Assembly: GCF_964204645.1 (NCBI RefSeq) | Contig: NC_134026.1 | Coordinates: forward strand, 25,330,150-25,394,149 | Direction of reading: 5' to 3' | Source of the DNA: Tubulanus polymorphus | Taxonomy: Eukaryota > Animalia > Nemertea | DNA: 64,000 nt | Shown here: piece by piece, positions 1,488 to 54,266 of the stretch | Layout of the letters: each line of letters starts with the position of its first letter | Numbering within the stretch: position 1 is the first letter of the stretch | Notes under the pieces: model-generated | The model's input: the letters and a program-made list of their open reading frames with translations, nothing else | What the model was told of the DNA's origin: nothing | Databases searched by the model: none | Made by a program: the position numbers and the translations under genes

Positions 1488-1820
1488 TGGGAGGATATTG
1501 AGGGAGGGCTAGGTGGGAGGGCATCGAGGGATGGGGGATGGGAAGGTGGGGGCGGGCAGGAGGGATGGGGTGAGGATGGGCGGGAGGGAAGGGGTGTGAG
1601 GGCGGGAGGGAAGGGGTGTGGGAGGGCGGGAGGGAAGGGGTGAGGGTGGGCGGGAGGGAAGGGGTGTGGGAGGGAGGGAGGGAGGGAAGGGGTGTGGGAG
1701 GGAGGGAGGGAGGGAAGGGGTGTGGGAGGGAGGGAGGGAAGGGGTGAGGGCGGGCGGGAGGGAAGGGGTGAGGGAGGGAGGGAGGGAAGGGGTGAGGGAG
1801 GGTCGGGACGGGAGGTTAGG
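1488..1820 (+). repeat. G-rich low-complexity/minisatellite tract (GGGA/GGGAAGGGGTGT units)
   Basis: Continuous G-runs with recurring gggagggaaggggtgt units; explains the GREG-repeat ORF at 1618. Confidence 0.9.
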
Positions 1821-2088: not shown

Positions 2089-5000
2089 AATGAAATGCAG
2101 CAATAGAAATAAAAACTGCAGTTTTACTCTCATTTCATGATGAGATACCGGTTACACGCGGCACCAGCAGCAGGTAAAAGCTGTCTGGAAATCTATCAGA
2201 ATTCATTATTGTCATAGAAATATTCTATATAGATTTTTCTTATCTGTGTATTTTTTCAGCAGTCCATCACTCAAAGATCACGGCAGTTTGAAGTGTGTTT
2301 TCTATCATTTACGTCCTGATCGAAGTTGCGATTATCGAGGTCCTTTATTTTTCATACACATTTTCAGCAAGCAGAGCTATGGAGGTCTTGGCAGCCAACA
2401 GTCAACCTCGAATACCATTGGCTTAAAAACGTTGAGGAAAATGGTGTCTTTTTGATTTGGTTTGAAACTGCTCTTATTTCATAACAACGTATATATGCTT
2501 CTATTCAACATTTGTATTTCAGGGACCACAATGAAGCTGAACCTTAACAAATCTGCAAAGTAAAAACACTAAATGTAGCATTCTGCAAATCAAACACAGA
2601 GATGGTGAGTTTTATATTCATTTATTGCAGTAACCTGTGGTGATTTATCAGTTATAAACTTAATTTATTATTTTTTGTCCAGTTTCAATTGATTTTTCTT
2701 CTAATCAAGTTTTTTACGTGTGATTCTCTTGAAAGCTTTGTAAGAAGTGCGGCCGCTGCACCCCCAGTCAAATCTACTGCGGAAATATACTACTACTATT
2801 ACAATGATTTAAACAGGTAAGAAGAAAAGTATTTCTCAGCATACAGTCAACCCCCGATATGCCGCCCACATCGGTGCAGAACAATTTTGGCGGTATGGCA
2901 GTATATGGGGGGTGTTCTACTGTGTATTTGTATTGAGATGTACATCGAGAAAACCTGGCGGTAGGCGGGGGTGCTGGAATATGGGAGGGCAGTATATTGG
3001 GGGTTGACTGTTGCAGACACATGCATGATAACTAATAAATTTTCTCTTTACAGAATAAGATCTGACCCGCACCAGCCAGAATTTGCAGTTTAAAAGAGCT
3101 GTTTTTTAGGGAGCAAAATGAAGCTGAACCTTCGTAATGCAAACAGTAAACATTTCGCTCTACAAATCAAATACAAGTCAGAAGTGGTGAGTTTTCTATT
3201 GGTTTATTGCAGTAATTTGTGGTGATTTATCAGTTATAAACTTCATTTATTATTTTTCATCCAGTTTCAATAGATTTATCTTCTCAAATCAAGTCCGGAA
3301 AATGGTGGGTTTTTGATTGGTCAATGTCAGCAGAACCCTCAGAAATCTGCATACACTCAACACATTATGATAAACAACTCAAAAACCTGGTGGGTTTTCA
3401 GTCAATCGAACACAAACAAGTTGCAGTCTCTATGTATTTCATTAGCCATTTTCTGGCATAATCTTTCTCTTTCCAATATGCGATGCACCCATCTCAAATT
3501 GTGTTGGAAAAAAGATATTCACATTCAAATAATGAATAAGCGTATTGTTGCTGAAGCTGCTATTATTCTTTAAGAGAAACTGAGTAATTTTCTTAATTTT
3601 TTCAGGAAATTATCAGTGCTCTTAACTTTATGTCAAAATGGCTCTTGGAAGTGAAATCCTGCTAGAAATGAAAATGGTCAGCAAGGTCAAAAGGCACTAA
3701 CTAATCCAACTAATCTAATTCAGGAAAATGGTGAGTTTTTCGTCACTCCACTGTGCTCTGATTTGATGATAACTCAACAATTGATCATTCTATACAGTTT
3801 TTTTTATGTGTGATTTTATAGAAAGGCTTGTTAGAAGTGCGGCTGCTGCATCCCCGATCAAATCTACTGGAAGATATACACTATTACTACAATAATCAAA
3901 ACAAGTAAGAAAAATTGTAATTTTGAGATGATGTTTCCTCATTTCACTGATCAATTTTCTCTTACAGAATAAAGTCCACCAGCACCAGAATTTACAGCTC
4001 ATAACACCTGGTTCAAAGTTCACCTCGAACATAATGCTAGATTCTCCTCACATGCAGCCTAATAATTCTGCAAACAGATGAGATGAAAGCAGTGAGTTTC
4101 AAGTTGAAATGGCTATTATATCATAACTTTCAATGAGTATTATCACCATTTGTGAATTTTTATTTTAGGAGCCAAAATAAGCGGAACCCTCAACAGAATC
4201 TACGACCAGTAAACATTGAGAATTTACTTAACATTATGGTGGACATCGCTCCTCAAAACAAGTACTGGTAAATATCTTTGCAGATTCCAGGTTGCTCCTG
4301 TTCGACTAGATATATGAAGTCATTTCCTGATAAAAAGCTTTTCTTTTGTGACCACAGTTCCACCAAGTGGAACTACATTAAAAAAGAATGAAGAAGCTCA
4401 TTGCTATTATTAGTAATTTTCTCTACACAATTCAACAGTTCAATTATTTATATATTGATTTTTTCAGGAAATTATCAGCGCTCTTAAACTTCATGACATT
4501 ATGGTTCTTGGACATGAAATTCTGCTTGAAAATGAAAATGGTCTGCGTGGTCAAAATGGTACTGGACTAATCCGATACAAGTTTGGAAATGGTGAGTTTT
4601 TCATCACTCCACTATGCTTCAATTTGATACATGTAATTACTTTTGTCCTAGTTATGTGTTACCGCTACTGTTTACAGTATTTTTATATGTGATTCTTTAG
4701 AATATTTAGTAAGAAGTGCGGCTGCTGCACTGGAAATACTGTGGACAATATGCTACGATGATAAAAAAGTCAGAAAAAATGTAATTTTCAGGATAGCAGG
4801 TAAGATGTCTTTGTATTTCGCGAAACAATTTTTAATCAATGAAGTTTCCTCTATTTTAGGACGAAGTGGGGACCAATGTGCCATTTGACAGGGACAGGGC
4901 ACCAGCCATCTACCATATCTACCTGAAGATTGATATGCTGCCATTTATTTCAGAGATCTGCTATTTTAAATTTTTAAGCCAAATGAATATTATTATACAT

Positions 5001-6572: not shown

Positions 6573-7480
6573 AATAAGTCAATACATGTGCGGTCGATTA
6601 ATTATTGGGTAGCGTTCAAATATGTTTGACTATTACCTAGGAGCCAAATTTTTGAGTTGGGTCATCAAGACACGGCAGGCCTGCAAAATATGAGGCGAAT
6701 TGGATGAATACTTTTCAACTACGAACCCCTAATATATACCACCGTCCCAATTGGCCGAGCGCTGCCTCGCCGCACGAACGTAAATGACAATTTTATTTTT
6801 TCCTTCAATTCTTATTTCTGTGTAGAAGATTATTGTTGACAGTTTCTTTTTAGTTTTGATACCGGTAAATGTAACCGTGTTTGATCCCCTATGTACGGCA
6901 AAATGTTGTTGGAGCCGGGGAAATGGAATTTTCTGTCAAGGTGCTGTGCAATGCATCGTTCAACAGTCACAATGGCCATCCCCGAATTATTTGGAGTTTC
7001 AAAATAGATCTTAGCTGTCGAAAGTGATGCGGCGTCGGTGGTTGAATTCTGCTGATTGTTCCGACCCGACCGTCGTGTGTTTTGAGCGGCGCTCTATTAT
7101 AATAACGCAGCGTTTGACATGTACTGATCCCAGGGTATCCGGCGGTAATTCGAAATCTGTAGTCATTAAACCATGGACGCTTTGCTTGAGATGAATAGGT
7201 TGATCTAATCGAAAAGGTTTGTAAAATATCATCTAGATTTTGAAGGGCAGAATTACCCACCAATGTCAAGATGACACATCCACATGTCACTATTTGTGCA
7301 CCTGGCAAAAAAAGACAGACACTTAAGCAGGATGATATGGACAACAGGAAACTCAAGCAATTCGCAGTCTATCAATGGCAAAAAACTTATCAGATTTATA
7401 AAAATGCATTAGTGGATCCCGCTACCTCCAGATTCAGAGGATAACCTTTGAAATTCCTACAACGCGGGCAAAAAGCAATT

Positions 7481-7562
7481 CGACGAGGATGGGATTCGAA
7501 CCCACGCGGGCAGAGCCCAATGGATTAGCAGTCCATCGCCTTAACCACTCGGCCACCTCGTC
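7481..7562 (-). tRNA. tRNA-Ser(GCT): tRNA-Ser, anticodon GCT
   Basis: Reverse complement GACGAGGTGGCCGAGTGGTTAAGGCGATGGACTGCTAATCCATTGGGCTCTGCCCGCGTGGGTTCGAATCCCATCCTCGTCG: 82-nt cloverleaf with long variable arm, intact A and B boxes, T5 Pol III terminator 6 nt downstream (aaaaa at 7470-7474 on +). Confidence 0.98.
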
Positions 7563-8066
7563 AGCTGCCTTAATCGTGGGTTAAACTACCATATAAAATC
7601 AACAATAGATGCTTAGCTATTATTTTTGTCAATTGATTATTAAACAATCTGAATATGTATGAATTGATATAAGCATAGTGTTATAAATCGTGTATTCTTC
7701 GCTAGAATGAAGATAATTATTTTGTTTCTTTCAAACGAAATCGAACGTTCGAGGCTACGATTGAGACGTGACCCCTCCATGAGAACACATGTTCGATGTT
7801 ATTCTCCAAAAAATAAATAGTGTCTCATGAACGAACTAGGTATTTCAGACAAATCATCGTTGATAACGTTGAAGTCAATCCCCCCATATTAACGGGTTAG
7901 TCGTATATCCTTATCATCTTTTCACAAACTCGTAGTGTAAGCTTTTAATTGAAATAAAACGAATTGATTTGATTTTTTATTTTTGGAGGATGATTTCAGG
8001 ATTACACAGATATTCCTAATCTTTCAGTTCCATGCCCTGTGGTCGGTGAAGTGAAACATTGCAGCC

Positions 8067-11000
8067 ATGGACAGAAATATATCTCATGTTATAACTGGAG
8101 TGTCATTTAACACGTATTGTGCAGAAGATATCAAAAGACTAAGTGTCAAAGAAATAACGAACCCTAATACATTCGATTCTCTTGGACAGTCGAATTACAA
8201 TGGACTTCATGATTCCGCTTTAGGTAGAATAATCTTTGTATATTTTTATCATTTTTAATCCATTTATGATATTTTCATTAAGTTTTCATTGTTACATAGT
8301 GGACCTGTTATATTAAGAAAATCATTTTTACTTTAAGGGCCATTGGAATTTGATGATGTTTGCTCAACATGCGGCCTCAATTCTATGTACTGTCCAGGGC
8401 ATATGGGTCATATTACATTGCCATTACCCATATACAACCCTATATTTTTCCAAAAGGTTTATCAGGTATAATATTGATTGATTAACTTTTCGACATAAAC
8501 AACAAAAACAGTTTGAATTGAATGATTAATTAAGCTTGAATAATCAGATATCCTTTTGTTTATTGTAGATTATGAAAGGAACATGTTTCTATTGTCATCG
8601 GCTGTTGGTTCGTAATGCTCAAACATATATGTACAAGGCCAAATTAAAAATCCTAGAATTTGGCTGCATCAGTCGCCTACAAGATGTTGATGATGAGTTT
8701 AACACATTGGTCAATGAATTAGGTTCTACAAAATCGAAGGATGATGTATTTTCCGATAAGATGGATAGTTGCGTATCGAAGATCATAAAAGGTAGAAAAT
8801 GAAGAATCTGATTAATAGCTACCCTAGTTTTAGGAAATTAAGGTTTGGAAGTGATTTTTTTTTTGATTTTTGGAATTTCAGAGGAATCTGAAAAATGTAA
8901 AAGTCATGCGGTCAATGTGAGAAACGTTTTGTCCAAGAAGCAGGAAATAACATCCGCATTTATCGATTATCATCTGACACGTTGCTCTGGAAAATGTCAT
9001 TTCTGTCAACTGCCTGTACGTGGTCTTCGTTCTGAGAACAACTGCAAGATCTATTTCTCGAAGAAACTTTCACGAGCCCATGCTCTTAAGATAATGGAGA
9101 AAAAGAAAAAGTGAGTTTGCGTAATATATTCCGAAGTAAGCTTCGATTTCAAAAGCATGTTGGTTAATGGTATCATAAGCAGTGCGACAAATTCTTTCTT
9201 TTAACAGGCAGCAGAAGTCGAATGATCTCGATGAAGAATTGATAATGATCCATGAAGAGAAAGATGAGCAACAGGATAGTTTACCTTCTGAGGCGGAGTT
9301 CGAAGCTATATCGGATCATACTTATATAACACCGACGGAGGCACGCGATCATTTACGTGAAGTTTGGAAAAACGACGGCGAAATGCTGAAACTTCTATAT
9401 GGTTCGCTGAATAATAAATCTGAAAACACAGATTGCCCTATAGATATATTCTTCGTGGAAGTATTGCCTGTTCCACCGAATCGTTTCAGACCAGTAAGTA
9501 CAAGTTTTGTCGAAATCAGCTTTGATTACTGCAGCAAATTAATCATCTCTAATATTGCGCATACTTTTATGTGTTTATTTAGGTCACGATAATGGGTGAT
9601 AAGAAATTTGAAAGTGGACAAACAGCAAACTATGCAAAGGTGATAGAATCTGCTGTGGTAGCAAAAACTATTTTGATGGAACTGAAAAGACAGAGTGCTG
9701 CTGGAAAAGAAGTTGAACAAGTTATTGATGAGGCTACGAATAGAGTAAGTATTGTTCATGATTTGATGAATATGTTTACTGGGGCCTATTCGATTATGTG
9801 ATGTGATGAACTTAACTCTTCACTTCTGATTGATTAATGGTCACATGAACGTTTTGGAGAATGGAAAGGTGGTGTGATTGCAGAGACCACATAAAGAACA
9901 GAATATGCATTGGATTGCATAGAATCGAGTAGGCCTTGTCATTTATCATTCTCGAATATTGCAGGTACTGATTGGTGTAGCTGGTAATAGTATTACAGAA
10001 AAGTTACAGACCGCATGGGTCAATCTTCAGAATTATGTGAATTTGGTGATGGATAGTGATTTGGATCGCCTAACAGCCGGCAAAGACAAATTACCCGGTA
10101 TTAAACAGGTTAGTATCATCTCTATTTCATACCTCTATACCTATGTACCCACCGAACAAATATGTATGGGTTAACATAATCTGAAACCCAGGGCCCCTTC
10201 GACTCCTTGATTCCTTAAAAACTCCTTCTAAACAGAAAATGCTTTTGAAGGTGTTTTAAACTCCTTTAATTTGAGATAAAATTCCTGTAAAGCTCATTCA
10301 GTTTTGAGAAATAAGCAATAAGAAATGTTTCTAATTGTACAGAAAACTACGCCAGGATTTTATACCCAATTAAGCGGTTCCCGAGTTTGGCTAGTGTGAA
10401 TAAAAGATATTTGCTTACAAAACCACTAGATTACTGGTTTACAGAGATAATCAGTACCGATATAGGAGGAGTCTACAGTAATTGGGATATGAAAGTGTTG
10501 CGGACACTTCCTCAAAATCTAAAATTTTCTTCTCGAAAAATACTTATATCCAGGATTGACCAATCTGTAGGGACCCTGTAAGCCATTGAATCCCTTTTTT
10601 GATTCAGGTTCTCGAGAAAAAAGAGGGTCTCTTTCGTAAGAATATGATGGGTAAACGTGTGGATTATGCAGCACGTTCTGTTATCTCACCGGACCCAAAT
10701 ATTCACATCGATGAGATTGGTATTCCTGAGGTTTTTGCCAAAAAGTTGACGTATCCAACACTAGTTACTCCTTGGAATGTGCAAGATCTGCGTCAAGCCG
10801 TGATAAATGGACCCTCAGTTCATCCTGGGTAAGCAATCGCTATCAGAATTACCACATTCTATTCATCTACAGTTTTAACTCTATTTTTGAGTCAATCATT
10901 TTTAGGGCATCGTTTGTTGAAAATGAATATGGAAAGAAGATCCATCTGAACAATACAACTCAGATCCAAAGAGAAGCAATTGCCAATCAACTACTCAAAC

Positions 11001-14000
11001 CAGACTCGTCAAATAGGAAAATGGTTTTTGGACAGAAAAAGGTAGGATACATTGACTGCACAATTCATGATTCCTCTTAGTGACATTTGTTGTATATTTG
11101 TAGGTCTTTAGACACCTGCGTAATGGCGATATTCTTTTACTGAATCGTCAACCAACTCTCCACCGGCCGAGTATGCAAGCACATAAAGCACGCGTTCTGC
11201 CTGGAGAGAAGACTTTACGACTACACTACGCATGCTGTAAAGCTTACAACGCTGATTTTGATGGTGACGAAATGAACGCACATTTTCCTCAAAATGAAAT
11301 CGCTCGTGCCGAAGCCTATGAGATTGGTATGGATGATTGTTAGATAATAACAAATGAGATTCTATTTGTATTTTGCATTCGAAAAAATGATACTACGACT
11401 TCATATTGTTACTTCCAGCTGCTGTGCCTCATCAGTTTTTGGTACCGAAAGATGGAACACCTCTGGCCGGCTTAATTCAGGATCATGTTGTTTCTGGTTC
11501 TTTGTTGTCCTTGCGAGGTCGTCACTTCAATAGAGCTGACTATCAACAACTTGTATACAGCGGTTTGAGTCATAGATGTGAAACAATCAAATTATTACCG
11601 CCGTGTATACAAAAACCAGTGAGACTTTGGTCAGGGAAACAGGTAAACCTCTCCCGATTTACTGAGATAAGATGATGTATAGGGCTTAGTTTAAAAGAGT
11701 AGTTTTAATGTTTGCACAAGGCTTAACTTAATTGACATTGATTTGAGTAAACCTTGGGGCAAAAGTTAAAACTAGCCCAGATATTCATTCACTTGGGCTT
11801 TACTGCAAGCAATTTTGTTGTTTAGGTTATATCTACGTTGATTATTAATCTGATCCCAGCCAATAAACCACCCATTACACTTCATGGTACATCAAAAGTT
11901 TCTGGGAAGGTAAGAATAACCGGATTCATTTTATTTCAAGTTCGAATTTTAATGACTGAGTCAATGGACAACTGGCTGTTGCAAGTTGATTCTTCATAAT
12001 TCAAAATAGGCCTGCTGTTGCTAGATTCAATGATTTTCATTTCAGAATTGGCATGATGGTAAAGGTGCTTGCTGGCGTGCTGGAGGAACGCCATTAAAAG
12101 GTGATGATATGCTTGAAAGTCAGGTGATCATTCGTGATGGCGAACTGTTGTGTGGTTTACTGGACAAGGCTCACTATGGTCCCACCCCCTATGGACTAGT
12201 CCATTGTTGTTATGAGGTAAATTTTTGAGCGGAAGAATATCAGGCATCAGGATTTTTTTTAAATGGATGCTTCGGTAGTATAATTCAGTTTCACTTATAT
12301 TTTGTAGATTTACGGACCCGAAATGGCTGGATCTTTGCTTACTTGTTTTGCCAGATTATTTACAATATTCCTGCAACTGCATGGATTTACCCTAGGGGTT
12401 GAGGACATTCTAGTCAGGAAAAATGTATGTGAAATGGTGAATGTAAATAACTCCTCAATTATATTTGGCAGGGATGGCTATTTTGTTTTATATATTGTTT
12501 CTGCTTACCATAGGCCGATGAAGTGAGGACAGACAATATGGTCAGCGCAGCGCAGTGTGGGCCAAAAGTTGCAGCGAAGGCATTAGGTGTCGAATATGTC
12601 ATGGATTTAGATGCCATTCGAGATAAATACAATGCTGCTCATTTCGCTAATGATGACTTAGAGATGAAGGAACTGGATCTATGTATGAAGACATCAACCG
12701 ATGAATACCAAAACCAAATTACAAAGTGAGTTGTAAATCTGTTAAACGTTAGATAGCTCTCGGCATATAACACCGGTAAATTGTATTACGTTTCTTTTCA
12801 GAGCTTGTATGCCTGCTGGTCTTATCAAACAGTTTCCTTATAATAACTTACAATTGATGGTGCAATCCGGTGCAAAAGGATCATCTGTAGGTTTATGTAC
12901 TATCTATCTATGAAGGCTTTCCTTCACTTTCAATGATGATTGTAAGCAAACGGTTGATGAATCTGTGCTGAATATGAGACTTTTTCCTGTAGGTGAATTG
13001 CATGCAGATATCTTGTCTGTTGGGACAGATTGAATTGGAGGGTCGCCGTCCTCCTATAATGATCAGTGGGCGTTCGCTGCCTGCATTCTTACCGTACGAT
13101 ACATCTCCACGAGCTGGTGGCTTCATTGATGGTCGATTCTTGACCGGTATTCGTCCACAAGAGTATTTCTTCCATTGTATGGCAGGACGAGAGGTGTGTA
13201 TGCTTATTAAACTCTTCGTTGAATTTGTAAATATATGTCTTTACCGTACATGAATGTGGTCCATATTATGTTTTCTACTATTTCAGGGTCTTGTTGATAC
13301 AGCCGTGAAGACAAGTCGTAGTGGTTACTTGCAGAGGTGTATTGTAAAGCATTTAGAAGGTCTGAAAGTGAACTATGATCTTACTGTACGAGAAAGTGAT
13401 GGTAGTGTTGTTCAGGTATAGATAGACTACATGCCAAAAAACAGTGTTATTCGTCTTTAAAACTAGAAAAACATTGTACTAATCAAATATTTATCTCATA
13501 GTTTGCTTATGGTGAAGATAGTTTGGATATTCCTGCAGTGAAGTTCTCCTCCAGAAAGCAATTTCCCTTCCTGATGGAAAATTATGGTAGCATTGTCGAT
13601 CCAGTGATTCAAGAAAAGATCAGCAATCGGATGAATTGCACGTCTGCGCAAAAATATGAGAGCAAAGTAAGTACTCATAGGCTGAAGGTCCCATGTTGGA
13701 TGGAACTATACGTGTTGTTATCAGTAATGAAACTATTTTAGCTGAAGAAGTGGAAACGGAAAAATACAGGACAAAAGAATCGATTAACCAGTAGTCCATT
13801 CCTACTTTATGAAAGTACATGTAATATGGATAAAGCAGCCGTGGACAAACAAAAAGATTTGCTGGTTAAAAGCTGGCGAAATTGTTCAGGGAAAGAAAAA
13901 GAAAAGTAGGCACCCATTATAATTTCTTCATTCATATCTCATGCATTTTGGTCGAACTCATTTTTAAGGTAAAAACGCTAAATCTTAACATGTTTTCTGA

Positions 14001-17000
14001 TATTTTGCTTTGCCAGGTTTTTGAAACAGGCCAGTAAATGCCCAGATCCAGTTGTATGCCGGTGTAGTCCTAATCGTTATTTCGGATCCATTAGTGAAAG
14101 AATGTCTGAAATTATTGACCGGTACTTAGAAAAAAATGCCAGCCAAGTATGTATTTTCACAAAAAGGATGTTCATAATAATATGAAGGAAAGAATTGTAG
14201 ATCTATTGGATGTTCGTGGTGTTCTAATTGAGAAAATACATATTTCTAGTTTTCAGATGATGACGTCGAGTGCCCAAAAGGAAAATTATCAGAGAAACAG
14301 TTCAGAAACATGATGTATGTACAAAATCAAAAAGCTCTTGCTCAGCCTGGTCACCCAGTTGGTCTTCTCGCAGCGCAGGTATTGATTGATAATTCAGCAA
14401 TTTGCATAATTTGTTGATACTAACGTAAAGGTTGTTTTATTTATGTCATCATGTGTGTATTCTAGTCAATTGGAGAGCCATCTACGCAAATGACATTGAA
14501 TACTTTCCATTTTGCTGGTCGTGGTGAGATGAATGTCACGCTGGGTATTCCGCGTCTGCGTGAGATTCTCATGATCGCCAGTAACAATCTAAAAACTCCA
14601 GCTATGGACATACCTCTCATTCCATCGGACAATGCAGAGACAAACGCTAAATATCTTCAACGAAAGTTCACACGAATCCAGTTATCAGAGGTAAGGCTGG
14701 TCTTCAGTTATAGTGGAGTCTTAAATCTAAAAGTATACTGGGTTAAGATATTTTTCTTATGTTTAACATAGGTTCTCGAGTCAGTGGATGTCTGTGAATT
14801 CTTAACTGTGAAGAAAAATGAGTAAGTACAAAATTTCCTACTTCTATAAGCACTGTCACATAAATCCAAATTATAAGTTCTTATTTTTTGCTTAATAATT
14901 TTGCAGATCTAGAGGCAGAAACTATCGCATAAAGTTCAACTTCCTACCCTATGACCTCTACTCAGATAAGTTTGATCTAACTCCGGACAAGATATTAGAT
15001 TTCATGGAGAAGCAATTCATAGTCAAAATATCTCATGGGCTGAAGAAGAAAATGTCAGAGAATGCGAAGATCAAGTCAGTAACCTTGTGATTTTGATAGA
15101 AATCCTTTGAAACCATTTATGGATTAAAAGAAATTGATTTTACACGCACCATTTCCAGGTCAACTACAACTGCGTATATAGTAGATAATAAGAACAAAGG
15201 CGAGGAAAATCAGAATGTAGCTCAGTCAGATGAGGAGGCATTTTCAGATGATGATCTGAATGATGGTGACGCTACAGCTGCAAAACAACGTGAACGAGTC
15301 AGTGATGAGTTAGAATACATTGGAGAAGACGCTGAAAAACAAGATGTTGGAATAAGCGATAATGACCCATCAGGTACTTCTTAGGCATCGAAGTATCATC
15401 TTTTTCATTCATTTCAATTTTTTCAAAATATTCATGCTGTTTCCGATAATGATAATAACAGATGAAGAGTTACCAGATGTCGAGGGAAATGAATATGAAG
15501 CTGAAATTGAGAGTAATGACGGTGAAATTCATGCCCATGTTGGAAAGAAAACTCCATCCAAAGGTGCAGCACGATCTAAAAAGAAAATGGATTCAGCAAG
15601 GATTCATGTAAGTGATTTACTGAATCAATAATGTGTAAATTCTCCAGCAATTGTTTAAAGGTCTATCCGTAGACAGTATTTAGTTCCCAGAATATGTAAA
15701 CTTTGAAGATGCTTTTATTGTATCCCCTTGAGCCTAGCATCTCAAGAAAAAATTGAGTTGATCAGAAACAAGTTGGCCATCTTGTGAAATTAAATGAAAC
15801 AAAAAAGGTCATTTTATGTCTGGATTCTCAGGCTTCAAGCTTCTTAATGGTTTGTCATATTGCGCAAAAGATCTTATACAAATGAGACAGGTTTTTGGAG
15901 CAGTTGATTGTTACGCTGTGAGCAGAGCATCCAGCAGTTCCATTAGTTTTGGTTCATATCTTGAGAATAATTTTTGCTGAAAATATCAGCAGTTTTTACG
16001 TATTGTTACCCCTTGTTCTGTCAAAGGATACATCTCCTCACATGGAATTTGGATTACTCAGTTTATTTTTCATACCATCAGGGTGACTGTTAAATTATTC
16101 CAATATCGAACTACGTCGTATTTTGTATTTCTAGCATGTGTTACATATTAGCAACCTGATAACAGATTACAAATATGATCATCATAAAGGAGAATGGTGT
16201 GAGATATCGTATAAAGTAAGTCTCCGCTGATATTACCTACGCCAATGAAAGAATTGGATCGTATCAATAAAATTTGCTCGTTTTGATTGATATTATAGCT
16301 TCCGATGGAAAATAGTAAAATTGATGCGACGACCTATCTGGAAAATGAAGCTAAAAAGACCGTAGTCTATGAAACTCAGGATATTAAACAATGTTTCCTC
16401 AGTAAAAGTACGAAACCCGGAGAAGAGGGACTTATTCGTCTGAAAACTGACGGTGTCAACATTCAAGTGAGTTCATTGCCAGTCTATGCGATAGACGTAA
16501 AAGCCGTGTTCGTTTTATCGAGGCTGAGTCGACTCAATCAACTCGGTCTGTCGCTCTTAAGAAGTCAGATAGCTCAGTCATTAGCCACGATCACACAAGC
16601 ATTTAAGAGCCTAATGTCTGGTGATCACTGTGCCAGATTTGGCCCAGGCCAACTGTTAACTCTGGTATTAGATTGGTTCATTGCCTGTTTTAAAGATTTT
16701 AGCTTGGGTCAAATTATTCTGTGTGAATGCTTATTGGTTCACCTTGCTTGCCACTGCATCGTTTCATATAGCATTTAAGTAATGAGTGAGTGATTTGCGT
16801 GTTAACATGCTGTCTGATAATTTACAAGTAGAATTTGACTTGGGCCAGTTTGACCCGGGCCAATTCATGTGTCAATTCTGTGTGATCGTGGCTATTGTAA
16901 TCTCTGTGGCTCTTATCAACTTATATGGCATCATCCACAGATGAGAAAACTGTTAGTAGACGAATCCATTAGACTGTTCCAGGTTGGGAGCAGCGATAAT

Positions 17001-20000
17001 GATTTTGACATTTTCCCTTAGATTGCCATGGCGGACTGAACAGTTGACTCAGTCAGTCAAACGAACACAGCTAATGTGTTTTGAATCCCGGCCTCATTGC
17101 ATTGCTGTTTGTAGAAAATGCTAATACGATCTCCTGTTTTATAGGAAATGTACAAATACAGCGACATTCTTCAGATTGATAAACTGTACAGTAATCACAT
17201 TCATGAAATTGCTAGAACCTATGGTATAGAAGCAGCCGGACAAGTAATTGTTAAGGTAAAATCAGTTAGTTCTATATGAAATTGAATCCGGAAGAAGCAA
17301 CTTTTCACCCCTGCTTCTTGAAGATGATGCCATTGACGGGCATTTCAATAAACAAAATTTGTAGTTGGATGCCTTTTCAAACTGTCATTACCTGTACCAT
17401 CATATAAGATATCATTTCAAAACAGCTCTAAGTCTCGAACAGTTCTTAGTTGACGTTTTTAGGGAAACTGTGTCTATTACCACAGAAGTAGATTTTGATT
17501 AGAGCCAGTATGTTAGAAGTCTTAAAGATAATTAGTCTGGGCAATGATTGCGCATGTATGGGTTTGCTGATGTAACTATACTGTTAGAAAGTTTGAAAGT
17601 ATTATCTGAGAGCATCAATCATTCAAATATCGTCAGTCTGATCGCCAGGCGGTTTCGCTACAACTGTTTAGACATCATTTATTCAAGTCCCAGAGTGGAG
17701 TCATGGCTTTAAATATTCCTTTGGTCGTCTCCGATAGATTCCTTTACTTGTCTGCTGTTTAATAAACATCTTGCTGTTTTCGTTGCATCTCATTAGTAAC
17801 TCCCGTGAGGAGATAGAACAACATTTTCATCTAAAGGTCATAACACAATATGAATAGATAAATAATAATGCATGTTTAGTTCTGCTTCGCTGCTGGAATG
17901 GACGACCTTCTTGCATCGGTATAAAAACGAGTTGTCCATCGCAATTTACTTAGCTGAAATTGGTTTTGCTAAATCAAGATTGACCGGTCGCCCTCGTATA
18001 TTACATTACCGATGACCAGCGGATCTTCATTTGAGGCCATTCACTGAATAAATATGTTGCTTACAGCTGGAGGATATGCTCAACATCAACCAATGATTGT
18101 TTGGCCACTGTCTGAAAGAATTCTTTTAAAAGTTGCTTTGTTTTTCAAAATTTTTTCTTGATTTCACTCATCATTAGTCAGTATTGTACGACCTTTAAGA
18201 CATTATCGCCTTAAACGGGCATATTCTGCATCAGGCCACTCGAGTCATTAGGCATTCTAACCACTGAGGAGGTGCTATTTGCTAATCCTCAAGATCTGCG
18301 CACTGACAACTCCATCTGACCAGCGCGCGGTGTACGGACAGAATCGGTAAGCACGCTCTTTTGTGAACAAGGGAATTGTATTACATGTGATTTCTCCTGT
18401 GTCTAAATGCATTAATCTTGATGAGACTTTGGCATTCACACCAGGCACGGCTCGAAATCCAATCAGGCCATCTTTATCTGCCCCTTTTGTGTATAATTAG
18501 TACCGGCAGGAAATGGGGTGTCCATGAGCCGGTCCTATTTACAAAATCTGATCAGATCCTCACCAATGGCTCAACAATTGGATCCTATCAGTTGTTGTTG
18601 GCCTGCGAATTATTGCAGTATTACTTTGCTGATTGTATTTACATAACATTTCATCACCTATCAGAATGATGGGCAAATCAAAGTTTTTCTTCGGCAAACT
18701 TTTCGCGGTCAGCTTCGACCTGCTCTTTCATTTCATTGGACTTTCCTCGTATTCTGCCGACGATGTCTTGTTTTAAGGACAAGTGCATCAGTTTCTTTTC
18801 TTCAGGTCATTATACCGCCAGATCTAGCATCTACATGAAACTCATGTTTTTGGTGAGACATAAAGAGGTCATTCATCACACCTTCGCCGGTACCAATCTG
18901 CATGTATTTCCTATGAATCGGTAATCAAGCTTTGTGAATTCGTGCAGCAATGACCCATTATGAAAGAAATAATAGCAATTTAACTGGCAGTCTTTAGATC
19001 GTAAACTGTTTTGCTCGGGGTCCGTCGGGCGGGTGTACCCCGGTCTTGGTTTCACGAACAGTATATTTGCTAATGAGTTTCCGATTATCTGAATTGCTCT
19101 TGTGACTCGGGGAAACCGGCGCGAGGTGTCTTAAGACACATAAATGCTGGCGATTTATTGTCGTAGCTTATTTTCTGTAATTTCCATCGTGTAATTGGAT
19201 ATGTCAGTTCAGCGTTGGAGTGGACGTCATTCTGGGAGGAGACCTTCGCAGGAATTTCGACACGTTTGGCAGGAGATGACTGTTTTCGCTCTTTTTACAT
19301 GCATATAAACAAGTGTGTTGATGTGTTAGTTTTCATTAAGGGAATGTCAGTTGGTGAGAGGCCATGAATACTAATATGACAGCTGGCGAATGATCTTGAT
19401 TAAGCATCCGCTATTAAATATGAAACAATGCTTTTCGATTTGAACCCTGCACGCAGCATTCATCGATGCGCCACCCTGATTTGCAAATTTCATTACCTTC
19501 AGCGTCTACCGACTCCTCTCTAAATTTCACTTCGCTTTTCTCGTAGACATGGCGGTTTGTCGGAATTGACTTTGTCCGCAGTCGACAGTTTACTGTCAGA
19601 GTTTCTACGGACTGTGGATTAATGAAGAAAAGTTTCTTTCGATCGAAACATGTTCTACGCATCCATGCGCCTAATCAACTTGACACCCATCAGGTTTAGT
19701 TTATATGCCCGGTGTCAAAACGAAAAAAAATTCAATACACAACGAATGCAAATCGTATCGTCAGAATATTGTATCAATTCATCATATTCATGCAGTTAAA
19801 CTGATTTATTCTGACTTCGCAATAAGTCTGTTATTCATACATAGATACGTTTTTCATCGCGAGCACTCCGTTTTGAATTAATGCTGAAAAGTTTTTGTTG
19901 CATAAAACTTCATGTCTAGTTTTGCTGTTGAACTTTTTAGCAATCCCATCATTTGCGAACCATCACATTGTACAGAAACATAGAAAACGGTTATATGGTG

Positions 20001-20664
20001 TGGGCTGTTGGTGTTATTTTGACCAGTTTTATTATAGAAAATAGGAAATCAGTAATGAAGCTTTTGTTGTAATTAGCGCCAGATGAAGCGCTGGAAAGTT
20101 GTTCCTAATCAGAATTCAAATGTGATTCCGATGAATTATGTATTGAGTATGGAGCAAATTTAGAACAGCTCTGAGGTTCAGCCAGTATATTGCATGAATG
20201 TCACACTGGGACGTCGTGTATCAGGAAATGTGTCTGGAGCATTAAGATTATCAGCCAGTCATCTCTTTATGCGCTTACTGACGGAGGGAGCGAGGTCCAG
20301 CCATAATTTAATGGCAACGCCATGAAAATAATCATATAGTCAGAATTAGATAGAAATATTATTCTAAAACTTCTAAGCCTCTTCGACCCCAGCTAAACTC
20401 ACCTCATCATAATCAATGCATTTGTGTATGCATTAAAGCAAGGGATAGATGAGGACGCAGTGCTTGCTCCCATCGATTTAAATGATTTGCTCACAGTTTT
20501 AGAGAACTGTTTACATCCACCCAGCTGTCAATCCTGACATTATTTTCGATGTGTCATAATAGAATCAAGTTTGATAATTCCTTTGCTGGATGACTCGCGA
20601 TTTCGAGCTGACATTTTAGTTGATACGGAACCCATGGGTAATCACAGCAAAATCAAGCATACTT

Positions 20665-20725
<61 letters not shown>

Positions 20726-23700
20726 TCAATGATCCGATTCTTCCACCCCCTGTGTATTTGCCCAATCTATATCTGATAAAAATCTGATATGCCCACGGGT
20801 GCGCATAGAATCTAGCTGGCTGATAAAATGTCATACACATTCATTTCATTATTTCAGTCTACATATTTTTCATGTTAGTTCATCTGCTTGAGTTCATCTT
20901 CCTCGCCGATGACAGTTTCATCGACCTTCTATTTCGTTTCGTCAGTCTATTTGATAGCTGAACACGACGGGGCTAAGGATGTTCTTCATGCTTGATAGGC
21001 CTGAAATTCCTCACTTGGTTTTGACGTCTGGTCAAAAACTTATTTGGCAGTATATTGAAATCCTGTGATCTGTGTTAAATTAAATTATTTTCACAGGGTC
21101 GGTTTATGTTGTGCTAGATTTCATTCTTTATCAAGAATTTCATTCAACTCCAGACAACATTTCAGAGAATTTTCAAGGAAATATCTCTTTACGCTGACAA
21201 ACTATTCATTAACGCGCTGGAAGTAAATGGAGCTTTTAATTAGTGACTAATAATGACCACCAGAATTGAATGTCCCGTCCGAGTTGCCCATTCATATAGC
21301 TGATTTTACGTCTTGAGAATGAAGGTTTTGAACTGTGGTAATTATTCGGAAATAGCTATTTACATTGACCGATGAGAATAGCGCCTAATCAACACATGTT
21401 CATCAATTAATGAAGAGCGGTAATTTCATTTACTGTTTGCCTATATTGCAATGTTATATCGGACAAGTAGAATTTCGGTGCTTTGCGCATTAGCTGGTCT
21501 CAGGGTTGCGTTAATTGCGAACATCAATTAAGCATTTTAATGAGTAACTGCACAGAAGTTTCTATTGTTGTTAGCGGCTGCTGGTGGCTATATGCCGGGG
21601 TAATTCGCTTGTCAGTTGATTGCATGCCAAAAATTGAATCCCCTGCAATTAGTGCGGTTTTCATCAGTGCTCGTCCGGCCACTAGAAATCTCCTCGAGTC
21701 AATGTATTCCGTGGTGGCGAACAATTGCAATCTTTAACGATTAACAAGCGTCTATTGGGGCCCCTTCCATTGACTATGAGACATGATTACAATTTTGCAT
21801 GATCATATAAGTCTCTCGGGTCACATTTACTGTTCAGCACTGCTCTGACATGTATAACAATGCCTATCCCTGTCTCTAGCTAACCAACGAATTCTAAATT
21901 TCAGTTTATGCTGCATTTTTCCTCGAAATAATCAGTGTTATTATTCTACGAATGAGCCTTATGAACACGAGGGTGACTTATTTCAAATGGCGCCGGCTTC
22001 GAAAATCAGCATAATCAATTTATATGTCCACGTACAAACTGATCAACTGTAATCTGGCAATTAGTATGCGTATGTACATCTCGGCATAAATCAACAGTTT
22101 AATAAGATATAAGCTACAAAATGCAGTTTCCGCTATCGCAAACAATATATCTCGTCGATTAATCGAATCGGCCGATATTTCTTAGACGAAATCGATCGCG
22201 ACGTCTTACAGTTTATTTTATGCTCTCCAGAAGTCGGCGAGAAGAGCCGGTTGGGAAATTTGGACTCGGATTCGCGCGATACGGTAGATTAGGCGTTAAC
22301 CATAAAAACGGCTTTCGGTTTCGTTTCAAGTACGTATTGAAATTTCAATCGATAGAACGATCGACGTCGTCAATATTCCGCTCATTGTTTCGTCGTTCGA
22401 CTAATGGCCGTTTCTCGTGGACTCGCCGAGTAACGGCATTAATAGATAGTGCCTTATTACGTCGTGTTTTACGCCGTTTCGTACGCGCTACACGTCGCCT
22501 CATTCATATTTACGAGAGCGTTTGCGTCAGCTTTTCCGTCGGCGATAAAAAAACTTTCGCGCGCACGCCGCCATCGCATTGGAAAAAGTTGCGCGAAAAA
22601 CGTCGACGCAGATCGTCGAAATGATTTCTCCGGCGTCAATTTTCGTGTACCGCCGGGTGCACGACGCGGAAAGAATTTTAATCGGGCGAGCGCTCGCGAA
22701 ATTTAGAAAAGAATTATTACCTAACGTCGCTGATGTGAACCAGATTAAAGTCAAATGTCGCGACGAACCGTCCTGGTATATTTACCGCTTCGTACCGTCG
22801 ACTATCCGACAGCTAGAATCGAGTACCGGTTATTTGTATAATGAAATTATGTTAAAATGTCTGGCCTTGAATTAGTCTCGATTATCGGCACTTTTCTAAT
22901 CAACAGCGCTGTATACCGGTAGAACGGAATGTAATACATATATATCATCAAGTTCTCATCGGGTCTTGGCTCGTTTTTCGCCTGGGATTACTAGGTTTCA
23001 AAAACATTTCTTATTAACGCACCGGCATAATTTCATTATTCATATATTACTGTCCGGTCGCATGAATTTCACGCGTCGGCAAAATGCTGTTGAAGCGCCG
23101 TGTAATGTCTATACCCGTGTGGTGGTGCAGTTGGTTAAAGATTTCACCCTGTAAGCCAGGCGGCGTTAATTGCGCGTTGGAATTAAGTTAACACTTCCTT
23201 GTCAGGCGTCTTTACCTGATTAGGTCCCCCTCGCTGTACGTCGCTGTCAGAATAATTTATTTTCATCGAAAATATGAACACGTGGTAGATGCTTCGGGGA
23301 TATCAAAATGTTCATGTCCTTATCGCGATCGAAGGAAAAAGTATTCGTGTGGTCTTTGACTTCTTGGTATGCATTTAACTGGTGGAAATTTCCCGCAAAT
23401 TAAGAATGAACGAATTACGATCCAGAAGAGGTATTTTTTAAATTGGCCATTCATTCATCACTCAGTGAAGCGCTGCTTACCATTTTCCCACCGGTGTCAT
23501 TGTCTCAGAGATTTCTGGTAAATGTTACCCAGTTGAGGCTAGGTAATTGTTCCCTGTACGAATCTAACGCAGCACTGATTCTTCACTTGAACTATTTCCC
23601 TCAGACAGACGTTTGAACGTGTTTTGTTTTGGTAAATAACACATCCATCCACATTATGGTCGGTCAGCGGATGAATTTCTAATGAATGACTGATGGTGAA

Positions 23701-24630
23701 AAACTTCTAGCCAGTAACTAGTTCAGACTTTCTTACCTAGTTTTAGGACTTGCAATAATTAACTGGAAAACAATTCTTAACCCTTTCGGTGTGTCTACAC
23801 TGCAGTGCGGTGTATAAATTGGTGTTTGACATTGCTAGTACACCGCATGGTGATGTATTGATGTTAATAGTTGCTATCTGTATATTGAAAGATGGCAGCC
23901 CGTCAAATATAGCGATATATTAGTAACTAACGTTACACCGCACCATGGTATAGATGCACTAAAGCATTATGCCCGTTATTCAACAGACTGGGGTCGAATT
24001 TTTAGAAATCTTCAAAATGAATGATCTCCAGCACTTTCGGGTATTAGTCCGCACTGAAAGGGTTAACCCATTAGAGTCAAATCTTAACTCATAAGTGAGT
24101 TCTGTATAGCTCGGGGATTCAAAAAGTCTCAGTTTAAACTGTATCTTATACTAATCTACTGAATTTCTGTCTATACTTGTAGGAAGTAAGGGATGTATTT
24201 GCAGCATATGGTATTGAAGTCGACTACCGTCATCTGTCTCTGATCGCCGATTACATGACATTTTCCGGAGTATATTTGCCATTCAATCGTACGGGAATCA
24301 ATTCAAACTCGTCGCCATTCCAGAAAATGAGTTTTGAAACTACGATGAACTTCTTAAAAACCGCGACCATGGCAGGTAAATGAGAATGGATCGAATTTCA
24401 TATTCGGTTCTTGAAACTTATACCAAATTCTCACTAGCCAACGCATCTACTTTGCTAATGTTTTGAATAAATACATGTGTTTTACATACTTGATTCTGTC
24501 TGGTTTTTCAGGCTCAGCGGACACATTAGAATCACCGTCATCTCGTATAGTTGTTGGATTACCGGTTGGTGTCGGTACAGGCTGCTTCAAAATACATGAA
24601 CCAACTATTTCAACATCTCCTGAACAGTAA
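8067..24630 (+). CDS. POLR1A: DNA-directed RNA polymerase I largest subunit RPA1 (32 coding exons)
   Basis: GT-AG exons read manually: 8067-8223, 8338-8465, 8569-8791, 8882-9110, 9208-9493, 9583-9744, 9965-10108, 10608-10828, 10906-11041, 11104-11326, 11419-11642, 11826-11909, 12046-12216, 12308-12424, 12514-12725, 12802-12886, 12993-13193, 13287-13415, 13502-13666, 13742-13905, 14017-14146, 14250-14378, 14466-14690, 14772-14821, 14907-15074, 15159-15373, 15462-15607, 16135-16215, 16299-16466, 17145-17255, 24183-24375, 24512-24630. Motifs: [24 protein letters not shown], catalytic [60 protein letters not shown], acidic Pol I expander, [24 protein letters not shown]. Possible 5'UTR intron 7840-8027. 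Confidence 0.97.
10189..10578. mobile_element. Non-autonomous TIR element in a POLR1A intron
   Basis: Left end cagggccccttc; right end gtagggaccctg (reverse complement cagggtccctac). It accounts for this intron being ~500 nt rather than the usual 60-200 nt. Confidence 0.5.
16502..17072. mobile_element. Tourist/PIF-Harbinger-like MITE in a POLR1A intron
   Basis: TIRs agccgtgttcgttt (16502-16515) and aaacgaacacagct (17059-17072), 13/14 match, with subterminal gctgagtcgact/agttgactcagt similarity. Superfamily call rests only on the TIR sequence. Confidence 0.6.
16582..16894. mobile_element. Second MITE nested inside the 16502-17072 element
   Basis: Perfect 16-bp inverted ends tagccacgatcacaca (16582-16597) and tgtgtgatcgtggcta (16879-16894). 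Confidence 0.7.
17290..22080 (-). pseudogene. Endogenous viral element: decayed bunyavirus-like L protein (cap-snatching endonuclease + RdRp), C-terminally truncated, nested antisense in POLR1A intron 17256-24182
   Basis: Intronless and protein-like, with one frame persisting for hundreds of nt despite scattered stops (e.g. 21240->20722). Ordered motifs on -: endonuclease-like TPAY...TIETSV (21601-21551); F-like [19 protein letters not shown] (~19312-19253); A YVS*DTSRRFP (19142-19110); B-like [13 protein letters not shown] (18903-18865); C FAHHSD-[aggt]-DEMLC (18677-18641); D/E-like [20 protein letters not shown] (18442-18383). Ends are approximate. Confidence 0.8.
20669..20722. repeat. (TA)27 microsatellite interrupting the viral fossil
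   Basis: Pure TA run. Confidence 0.95.
22120..22875 (+). pseudogene. CpG-rich frameshifted coding-like fragment of unknown origin
   Basis: Abrupt switch to CpG-rich composition; overlapping + ORFs 22220-22624 and 22579-22875 can be joined by a 1-nt slip in the A-run near 22547-22553 (...[21 protein letters not shown]...). No family recognised. Confidence 0.35.
23115..23260 (+). mobile_element. Possible degenerate tRNA-derived SINE head
   Basis: A-box-like tggtgcagttgg at 23123-23134 in a tRNA-like 5' context; B box not recognisable. Confidence 0.3.
23781..24062. mobile_element. piggyBac-like non-autonomous element (MITE)
   Basis: TTAA duplication at 23777-23780 and 24063-24066; ends ccctttcggtg...cactgaaaggg (10/11 inverted match, CCC...GGG termini); three internal tacacYgca... 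quasi-palindromic repeats. Confidence 0.8.

Positions 24631-37679: not shown

Positions 37680-54266
<16,587 letters not shown>

What the first reader, a model, noticed from the sequence alone, without database searches (positions are those of the whole stretch)
17290..22080. Fossil bunyavirus-like L polymerase gene hidden antisense in an intron of POLR1A
Seen: POLR1A introns are almost all 60-700 nt, but this one is 6.9 kb, and most of it reads on - as one intronless protein broken by stops and frameshifts. Hand translation gives, in order: TPAY...TIETSV (21601-21551), K..KQ....KRVEI (~19300), YVS*DTSRRFP (19142-19110), IGTGEGVMN (~18890), FAHHSD+aggt+D (18677-18653; removing a 4-nt insertion restores FAHHSDD) and NAKVSS...GEITC (~18430). 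Established (recalled, not searched): hantavirus L has endonuclease TPD...E, motif A YVSADATKWSP, motif C FAHHSDD and D/E SIK.SPKKT...EFLS, and SDD is the segmented negative-strand virus signature. The A-to-B spacing (~80 codons) and SDD at ~1100 codons from the N-terminus also fit. Inference: an old, ~1600-codon non-retroviral EVE from a divergent bunya/hanta-related virus of an invertebrate. This would be an unusually long EVE and a record of a possibly undescribed virus lineage.
Basis: partly seen in the sequence, partly recalled or inferred. Interest (0 to 1): 0.92.

Follow-up and report, generated by a model that had tools for sequence, protein, structure and literature searches.

The report
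Faint viral polymerase fossil in worm
An unusually long intron in a ribbon worm's RNA polymerase I gene carries four short motifs, in the right order, that likely come from a badly decayed negative-strand RNA virus polymerase gene; the signal is weak and does not point to hantaviruses in particular.

Summary
The intron is real: 6,927 nt (17256-24182), intron 30 of 31 in POLR1A of the nemertean Tubulanus polymorphus or a very close relative; the other 30 introns are 62-678 nt. The quoted peptide strings are present on the minus strand. The claim that it reads as one ~1,600-codon protein was not confirmed: no stop depletion, no 3-base periodicity, and no significant Pfam, PDB, tblastn or frameshift-aware hit to hantavirus, 150 diverse bunya-like, ophio-like or qin-like L proteins. 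The endonuclease call is at chance level. One signal survives: within ~630 nt, palm motifs F-A-B-C occur in order on one strand. A family-agnostic chain score was reached by 1 of 2,000 randomised intron sequences and 4 of 300 whole-window shuffles, and is the best in the window. The test was designed partly after seeing the motifs. F and B resemble ophio/mononega-type polymerases; only A and C resemble hantavirus. Verdict: probably (about 55%) a heavily decayed Negarnaviricota L EVE of unresolved family; bunya/hanta assignment and length unsupported.

The parts
8067..24627 (+). POLR1A (RNA polymerase I largest subunit), 32 coding blocks, host gene
   Evidence: P0004 maps by exact peptide match in 32 blocks; Pfam Rpb1 domains 1-5
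17256..24182 (+). POLR1A intron 30, 6,927 nt, GT-AG
   Evidence: the other 30 introns are 62-678 nt
17300..22100 (.). Compositionally distinct block (GC 0.395, few A/T runs): candidate inserted DNA; ends not definable, no target-site duplication or terminal repeat seen
   Evidence: GC above all 15 overlapping comparison windows (0.319-0.377), A/T runs of 6 or more 2 against 5-23; no sharp boundary, longest end match 10 nt
19259..19294 (-). Motif F-like ([12 protein letters not shown]), best fit to the ophio-like profile
   Evidence: rank 9 of ~128,000 window positions; best hhalign hit of that frame, E 0.17
19110..19142 (-). Motif A-like (YVSxDTSRRFP, with a stop at x), fits hantavirus and qin-like profiles
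   Evidence: hantavirus block rank 3, long qin-like block rank 8 of ~128,000
18862..18900 (-). Motif B-like ([13 protein letters not shown]), best fit to the ophio-like profile; Borna disease virus L also has GEG at this motif
   Evidence: rank 2 of ~128,000; hhalign E 0.2; Borna L alignment
18660..18677 (-). Motif C-like (FAHHSD, then broken), hantavirus-like; overlaps an [11 protein letters not shown] reading in another frame
   Evidence: rank 7 of ~128,000; hhalign E 0.015, probability 2.9%
18389..18442 (-).
21551..21601 (-).
20669..20723 (.). (TA)27 microsatellite inside the block
22070..23270 (.). CpG-rich segment of the same intron, with two E2F-like words; separate from the motif chain, unexplained
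   Evidence: CpG observed/expected 2.26 for 22101-23000

Best explanation
The long POLR1A intron likely holds a heavily decayed, inferred non-functional endogenous copy of at least the palm region of a negative-strand RNA virus (Negarnaviricota) L polymerase gene, lying antisense to the host gene and likely from a lineage absent from the references I could fetch. Shown: the intron is anomalously long and compositionally distinct, and F-, A-, B- and C-like strings occur in order on the minus strand in three different frames, with many stops. Inferred from established nrEVE biology: viral L RNA was reverse-transcribed by a host retroelement enzyme, inserted in the germline into this intron, was tolerated because it is spliced out of the POLR1A pre-mRNA, and then decayed neutrally until only the most conserved motifs remain recognisable. 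No protein is predicted to be made. How far the viral copy extends beyond 18660-19294, and which family it came from, are not resolved.
For: Family-agnostic chain (best of four profile families per motif, tail-calibrated). F-A-B 14.79: 0 of 3,000 shuffles, 0 of 19 non-overlapping real controls (max 12.86). F-A-B-C with B-C up to 85 codons 19.55: 0 of 3,000, 0 of 19. With wider symmetric spacing limits and a Markov null added: F-A-B-C 1 of 2,000, best chain in the 64-kb window (19.08 against 17.02), 4 of 300 whole-window shuffles. Four blocks rank 2, 3, 7 and 9 of ~128,000 positions within ~630 nt. Ophio-type F-B-D: family-wise 15 of 1,500 across 64 tests. F-B spacing is 136 codons against 132 in the ophio-like profile. 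The region was singled out independently by intron length and composition.
Against: No whole-alignment test is significant for any reference set: hanta, peribunya; 150 representatives; 1 of 142 cores beat all 33 nulls; ophio-like, mixed; qin-like; mutation-aware, 13-92 of 99 nulls at or above. No Pfam, PHROGs, NCBIfam or PDB hit; none among 347 and 622 word-sharing candidates. No residual coding signal. No similarity outside the palm. The ophio and qin profiles and some spacing limits were chosen after I had seen the strings. With the reference B-C range (25-55 codons) the four-motif chain drops to 36 of 3,000. In the pair tests 5 of 63 overlapping real controls matched it. F-A (55 codons) is shorter than in the four profiles (70-88) and B-C (74) is longer than in any reference. 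By eye the same stretch can be read as hanta-, ophio- or qin-like, which shows how easily motifs are over-read.
Confidence: 0.55

Rival explanations
1. The block is non-viral inserted DNA (a decayed transposon or other host sequence), and the motif strings are chance matches picked out of three frames.
For: All alignment-level searches are null; no coding signal. No single family explains all four motifs. The whole-window chance rate is 1-4% before allowing for post hoc design, and a scan of many windows would turn up such cases. The neighbouring 678-nt intron has a similar composition.
Against: The chain is the best in the window and sits in the one anomalous intron. No transposon domain, terminal repeat or target-site duplication, and no second copy in the window.
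Confidence: 0.33
2. One reading: a ~1,600-codon EVE of a bunya/hanta-related L gene, including the N-terminal endonuclease.
For: YVSxD and FAHHSD rank 3 and 7 for the hantavirus blocks; A-to-C spacing of 156 codons is at the top of the 105-157 range in 142 references; TPAY lies about 980 codons before motif C against 1,002 in hantavirus. Hanta-like viruses are reported from bivalves (passages of 10.1101/2021.04.21.440720). Arena/nairo/phenui-type L proteins were not deliberately fetched; a phenui-like motif B reads QGILHYTSS (passage of PMC5552725), so that side of the Bunyaviricetes is not excluded.
Against: Hantavirus chain at chance level; best z 0.63; A-C pair 175 of 2,000, endonuclease 242 of 2,000, endonuclease plus C 378 of 2,000; 20 hantavirus blocks outside the palm score below most nulls (393 of 400 at or above); hanta/bunya F and B blocks do not fit.
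Confidence: 0.1
3. Assembly artefact or contaminant sequence placed in the intron.
Against: An RNA virus gives no DNA reads; the block is full of stops and holds a microsatellite, as old genomic DNA does; the matching protein lies on a 31.9-Mb contig; the splice sites are canonical.
Confidence: 0.02

Closest known systems
Non-retroviral EVEs of negative-strand virus L genes in invertebrates (e.g. Mono-Chu, Qin, Bunya-Arena and Orthomyxo EVEs in basal hexapods; passages of PMC6955108)
   Same: Fragmentary genomic copy of viral RdRp sequence with no retroelement nearby
   Different: The host is a nemertean, and the copy is too decayed for a BLAST- or HMM-level hit; published EVEs are defined by significant hits
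Endogenous bornavirus-like L elements (eEBLL-1 of Eptesicus bats; abstract of PMC4865735)
   Same: Long L-derived insertion; Borna L has GEG in motif B and about 139 residues from F to B (read)
   Different: eEBLL-1 keeps a 1,718-codon open frame under selection; this block has no open frame over 86 codons on the minus strand and no hit to Borna L in PDB
Ophio-like viruses (Aspiviridae/Serpentovirales) and Yueviridae/Qinviridae L
   Same: F- and B-like strings and F-B spacing fit the ophio-like profile; the A-like string fits a qin-like block; ophio- and yueviruses have SDD
   Different: Ophio A and C blocks and qin F, B and C blocks do not fit; no full alignment; true yueviruses were not available for testing
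Hantaviridae L and bivalve hanta-like viruses
   Same: A-like YVSxD and C-like FAHHSD strings
   Different: F, B, D and endonuclease blocks and B-C spacing do not fit

Membership tests
Non-retroviral EVE of a Negarnaviricota L gene | Significant translated similarity to a viral L protein or RdRp profile | tested here: not met
Non-retroviral EVE of a Negarnaviricota L gene | Palm motifs F, A, B, C collinear on one strand beyond chance | tested here: inconclusive
   1 of 2,000 local and 4 of 300 window-wide nulls; 36 of 3,000 with reference B-C spacing; test partly post hoc
Non-retroviral EVE of a Negarnaviricota L gene | Embedded in host chromosomal DNA | tested here: met
   inside a GT-AG intron of POLR1A in the assembly; not confirmed by reads
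Non-retroviral EVE of a Negarnaviricota L gene | Remnant of one intronless reading frame | tested here: not met
   no stop depletion, periodicity or coding likelihood; the coding test loses power at about 25-35% decay (host-gene control)
Non-retroviral EVE of a Negarnaviricota L gene | Empty orthologous site or orthologous copy in related species | not testable with these tools
Hantaviridae / Elliovirales-like L | N-terminal H-PD-E-K endonuclease | tested here: not met
   PD+E pair 242 of 2,000 nulls; interval p 0.2-0.35
Hantaviridae / Elliovirales-like L | Motif B of the QG..N type, 37-50 residues before motif C | tested here: not met
   the site reads GEGVMN, 74 codons before C; block p 0.90-0.94
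Hantaviridae / Elliovirales-like L | Motif A S.D.tKW and motif C HSDD | tested here: inconclusive
   partial strings rank 3 and 7; the pair alone 175 of 2,000
Haploviricotina (Aspi/Yue/Qin/Chu/Mononega) L | Motif F of KE[RK]E type and motif B of G..EG type about 130-140 residues apart | tested here: inconclusive
   ranks 9 and 2, spacing 136; family-wise 68 of 1,500 in pair tests; an intact peribunyavirus-sized L locus also scores z 6.3 on the ophio blocks
Haploviricotina (Aspi/Yue/Qin/Chu/Mononega) L | PRNTase capping domain downstream of the palm | tested here: inconclusive
   anchored downstream alignment to the ophio-like profile 9 and 22 of 60 nulls; no dedicated PRNTase profile run
Hareavirales (arena/nairo/phenui-like) L | Family-specific motifs A, B, C and spacing | not tested

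The most novel reading that the evidence does not exclude
The intron preserves a several-kilobase fossil L gene of an unsampled deep lineage of negative-strand RNA viruses that infected nemerteans, combining ophio/mononega-type motifs F and B with hanta-like motifs A and C and a long B-C insert. It would be the first ribbon-worm record of such a virus that my searches could find, and a datable marker near the split of the two Negarnaviricota subphyla.
Probability: 0.2. Interest if true: 0.72.

Novelty: new member of a known kind. Interest (0 to 1): 0.4.

Why it matters
If real, it shows that a negative-strand RNA virus reached the germline of a nemertean. I found no EVE report for that phylum in nine literature searches (listings only) and none in this scan's notes. 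Its motif mix would point to a polymerase lineage missing from the references I could fetch, and orthologous introns in other Tubulanus species could date it. As it stands the signal is below the level that EVE surveys accept, so it is a lead, not a discovery.

Tried and rejected
Null results: Pfam on whole frames and on 72 pieces; PHROGs and NCBIfam; PDB; word-based protein searches; Rfam (only the TA repeat matches weakly inside the intron). tblastn and HMM searches with 30 hantavirus L, 150 representatives, 76 ophio-like and 25 qin-like proteins. Frameshift-aware local, chained, anchored and mutation-aware alignments. Conserved blocks outside the palm for five profiles (best was qin-like, 32 of 400). 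Rejected: my own by-eye reading of a qin-type IDD motif C at ~18665 (rank 773) and a Borna-like stretch at ~18980 (no PDB hit). The A/T-run deficit is only partly independent of GC (p 0.06 against mononucleotide shuffles). The Atlas query with an ophio-like reference gave cluster names but no sequences. Structure prediction was not run: there is no alignment and no open frame long enough for a useful model. The 11 metagenome loci were not added to any profile. One search scanned 63 of the 93 overlapping minus-strand pieces generated, plus 9 longer frames. Supplements of the papers were not opened; RdRp motif tables there could hold closer references.
Full report
Host and intron. A window exon matches P0004 at 98% identity, labelled by its source as RNA polymerase I subunit RPA1-like of Tubulanus polymorphus, a palaeonemertean ribbon worm. 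P0004 maps to the window in 32 blocks from 8067 to 24627. Thirty of the 31 introns are 62-678 nt; intron 30 is 6,927 nt, GT 17256 to AG 24182, and adjacent Pfam Rpb1_5 positions flank it. The block 17300-22100 has GC 0.395, above all 15 overlapping comparison windows, and fewer A/T runs. It has no sharp edge, terminal repeat or target-site duplication and no second copy in the window.

Is there a broken protein? Homology-free tests show no remnant frame. There are 101-106 stops per frame, the cheapest stop/frameshift path is no better than Markov nulls, and 3-base periodicity is at non-coding level. A periodic coding model is also null, although a host-gene control shows that this test fades at 25-35% decay. 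The statement that most of the intron reads as one protein is therefore not confirmed.

Database and alignment searches. Frames read with X at stops gave nothing meaningful in Pfam, PDB, PHROGs or NCBIfam, or the large protein collection (0 of 347 and 0 of 622 candidates at E<=10). I fetched references: 30 hantavirus L proteins, 52 peribunya-sized and 17 tospo-sized, 150 diverse representatives found with a hantavirus core profile, 76 ophio-like and 25 qin-like. tblastn gave no intron hit better than E 0.26. A frameshift-aware aligner scored the intron 37.7 against 35-49 for 48 controls with the hantavirus profile. It was equally null for the other profiles and in chained, anchored and mutation-aware modes.

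Motif-level tests. All motif-B strings parsed from the 150 representatives are of the QG/MG..N type, whereas the intron has [11 protein letters not shown]. That string, and [12 protein letters not shown] 136 codons upstream, are the best hits of an ophio-like profile, whose F-B distance is 132; Borna disease virus L has GEG at motif B. Among ~128,000 window positions the blocks rank: ophio F 9, hantavirus A 3 (long qin-like A 8), ophio B 2, hantavirus C 7. Single-family tests give family-wise 68 of 1,500 for pairs, with 5 of 63 overlapping real controls as high. They give 15 of 1,500 for larger sets, with 0 of 19 real controls (max z 5.15 against 5.27); the best hantavirus z is 0.63.

The family-agnostic chain. 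Taking the best of four families per motif, F-A-B was reached by 0 of 3,000 shuffles and 0 of 19 real controls. F-A-B-C was reached by 0 of 3,000 with B-C up to 85 codons, but by 36 of 3,000 with the reference range. With wide symmetric limits and a Markov null, F-A-B-C was reached by 1 of 2,000, was the best chain in the window (19.08 against 17.02), and was matched by 4 of 300 whole-window shuffles; F-A-B by 9 of 300 and A-B-C by 12 of 300. These numbers overstate the case somewhat, because the ophio and qin families were added after I saw the strings. The endonuclease pair (242 of 2,000) and the A-C pair (175 of 2,000) are at chance level, and 20 conserved blocks outside the palm show nothing for any of five profiles.

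Mechanism. Shown: position, orientation, motif order and decay. Inferred from what is established for non-retroviral EVEs (general knowledge; PMC6955108 passages note retroposition signatures at EVE junctions): reverse transcription of viral RNA by a host retroelement enzyme, germline insertion into intron 30, removal by splicing, and neutral decay. POLR1A transcription would copy the virus-genome-sense strand into intronic RNA. Whether that yields small RNAs is untested and, at this level of decay, unlikely to matter.

Comparison with what is known. SDD in motif C is shared by Bunyavirales, Orthomyxoviridae, Ophioviridae and Yueviridae, while Qinviridae have IDD (passages; ICTV profiles read in full; passages), so it does not identify a bunyavirus. 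Hanta-like viruses occur in bivalves (passages), and a turtle virus has an L distant from all known groups (passages), so unsampled aquatic lineages are plausible. Long L-derived EVEs are known, for example the 1,718-codon bat eEBLL-1 (abstract). Passages of PMC11097642 and PMC6932829 added nothing specific. The arena/nairo/phenui side was not tested with its own references; one phenui-like motif B is quoted in PMC5552725 (passage).

Verdict. It would be a new member of a known kind. It falls short of the usual EVE criterion of a significant hit, so interest is moderate (0.4); the decisive searches are listed separately.

Noticed in passing
window 22070-23270: CpG-rich segment inside the same intron (CpG observed/expected 2.26 for 22101-23000) with two E2F-like words at 22555 and 22591 and a 108-codon plus-strand open frame at 22549-22872 with no Pfam hit; could be a nested promoter or a separate insertion.
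   Followed up: partly
window 16470-17144: The preceding POLR1A intron (678 nt, second longest) has raised GC (about 0.4) like the big intron.
   Followed up: no
window 7480-7563 (-): tRNA-Ser(GCT) about 500 nt upstream of, and divergent from, the POLR1A start codon.
   Followed up: no
window 41125-54263 (+): Spliced gene with RRM domains, ELAV/Hu-like by recalled motif, with long introns.
   Followed up: no
window 43289-43522: Perfect 97-nt inverted repeat with a 40-nt spacer in an intron of the RRM gene; MITE-like or a very recent foldback.
   Followed up: no
window 2500-4750: Locally duplicated exon-like units at 580-1,090 nt spacing, 67-94% identical, with no Pfam hit in the frames scanned.
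   Followed up: no
window 1499-1813: G-rich 24-nt tandem array; it gives the only motif-B block score above the intron's.
   Followed up: partly
L061 and L106: Short environmental viral contigs with weak similarity to both hantavirus and peribunyavirus L profiles (E 1e-15 to 1e-33): divergent bunya-like viruses.
   Followed up: no
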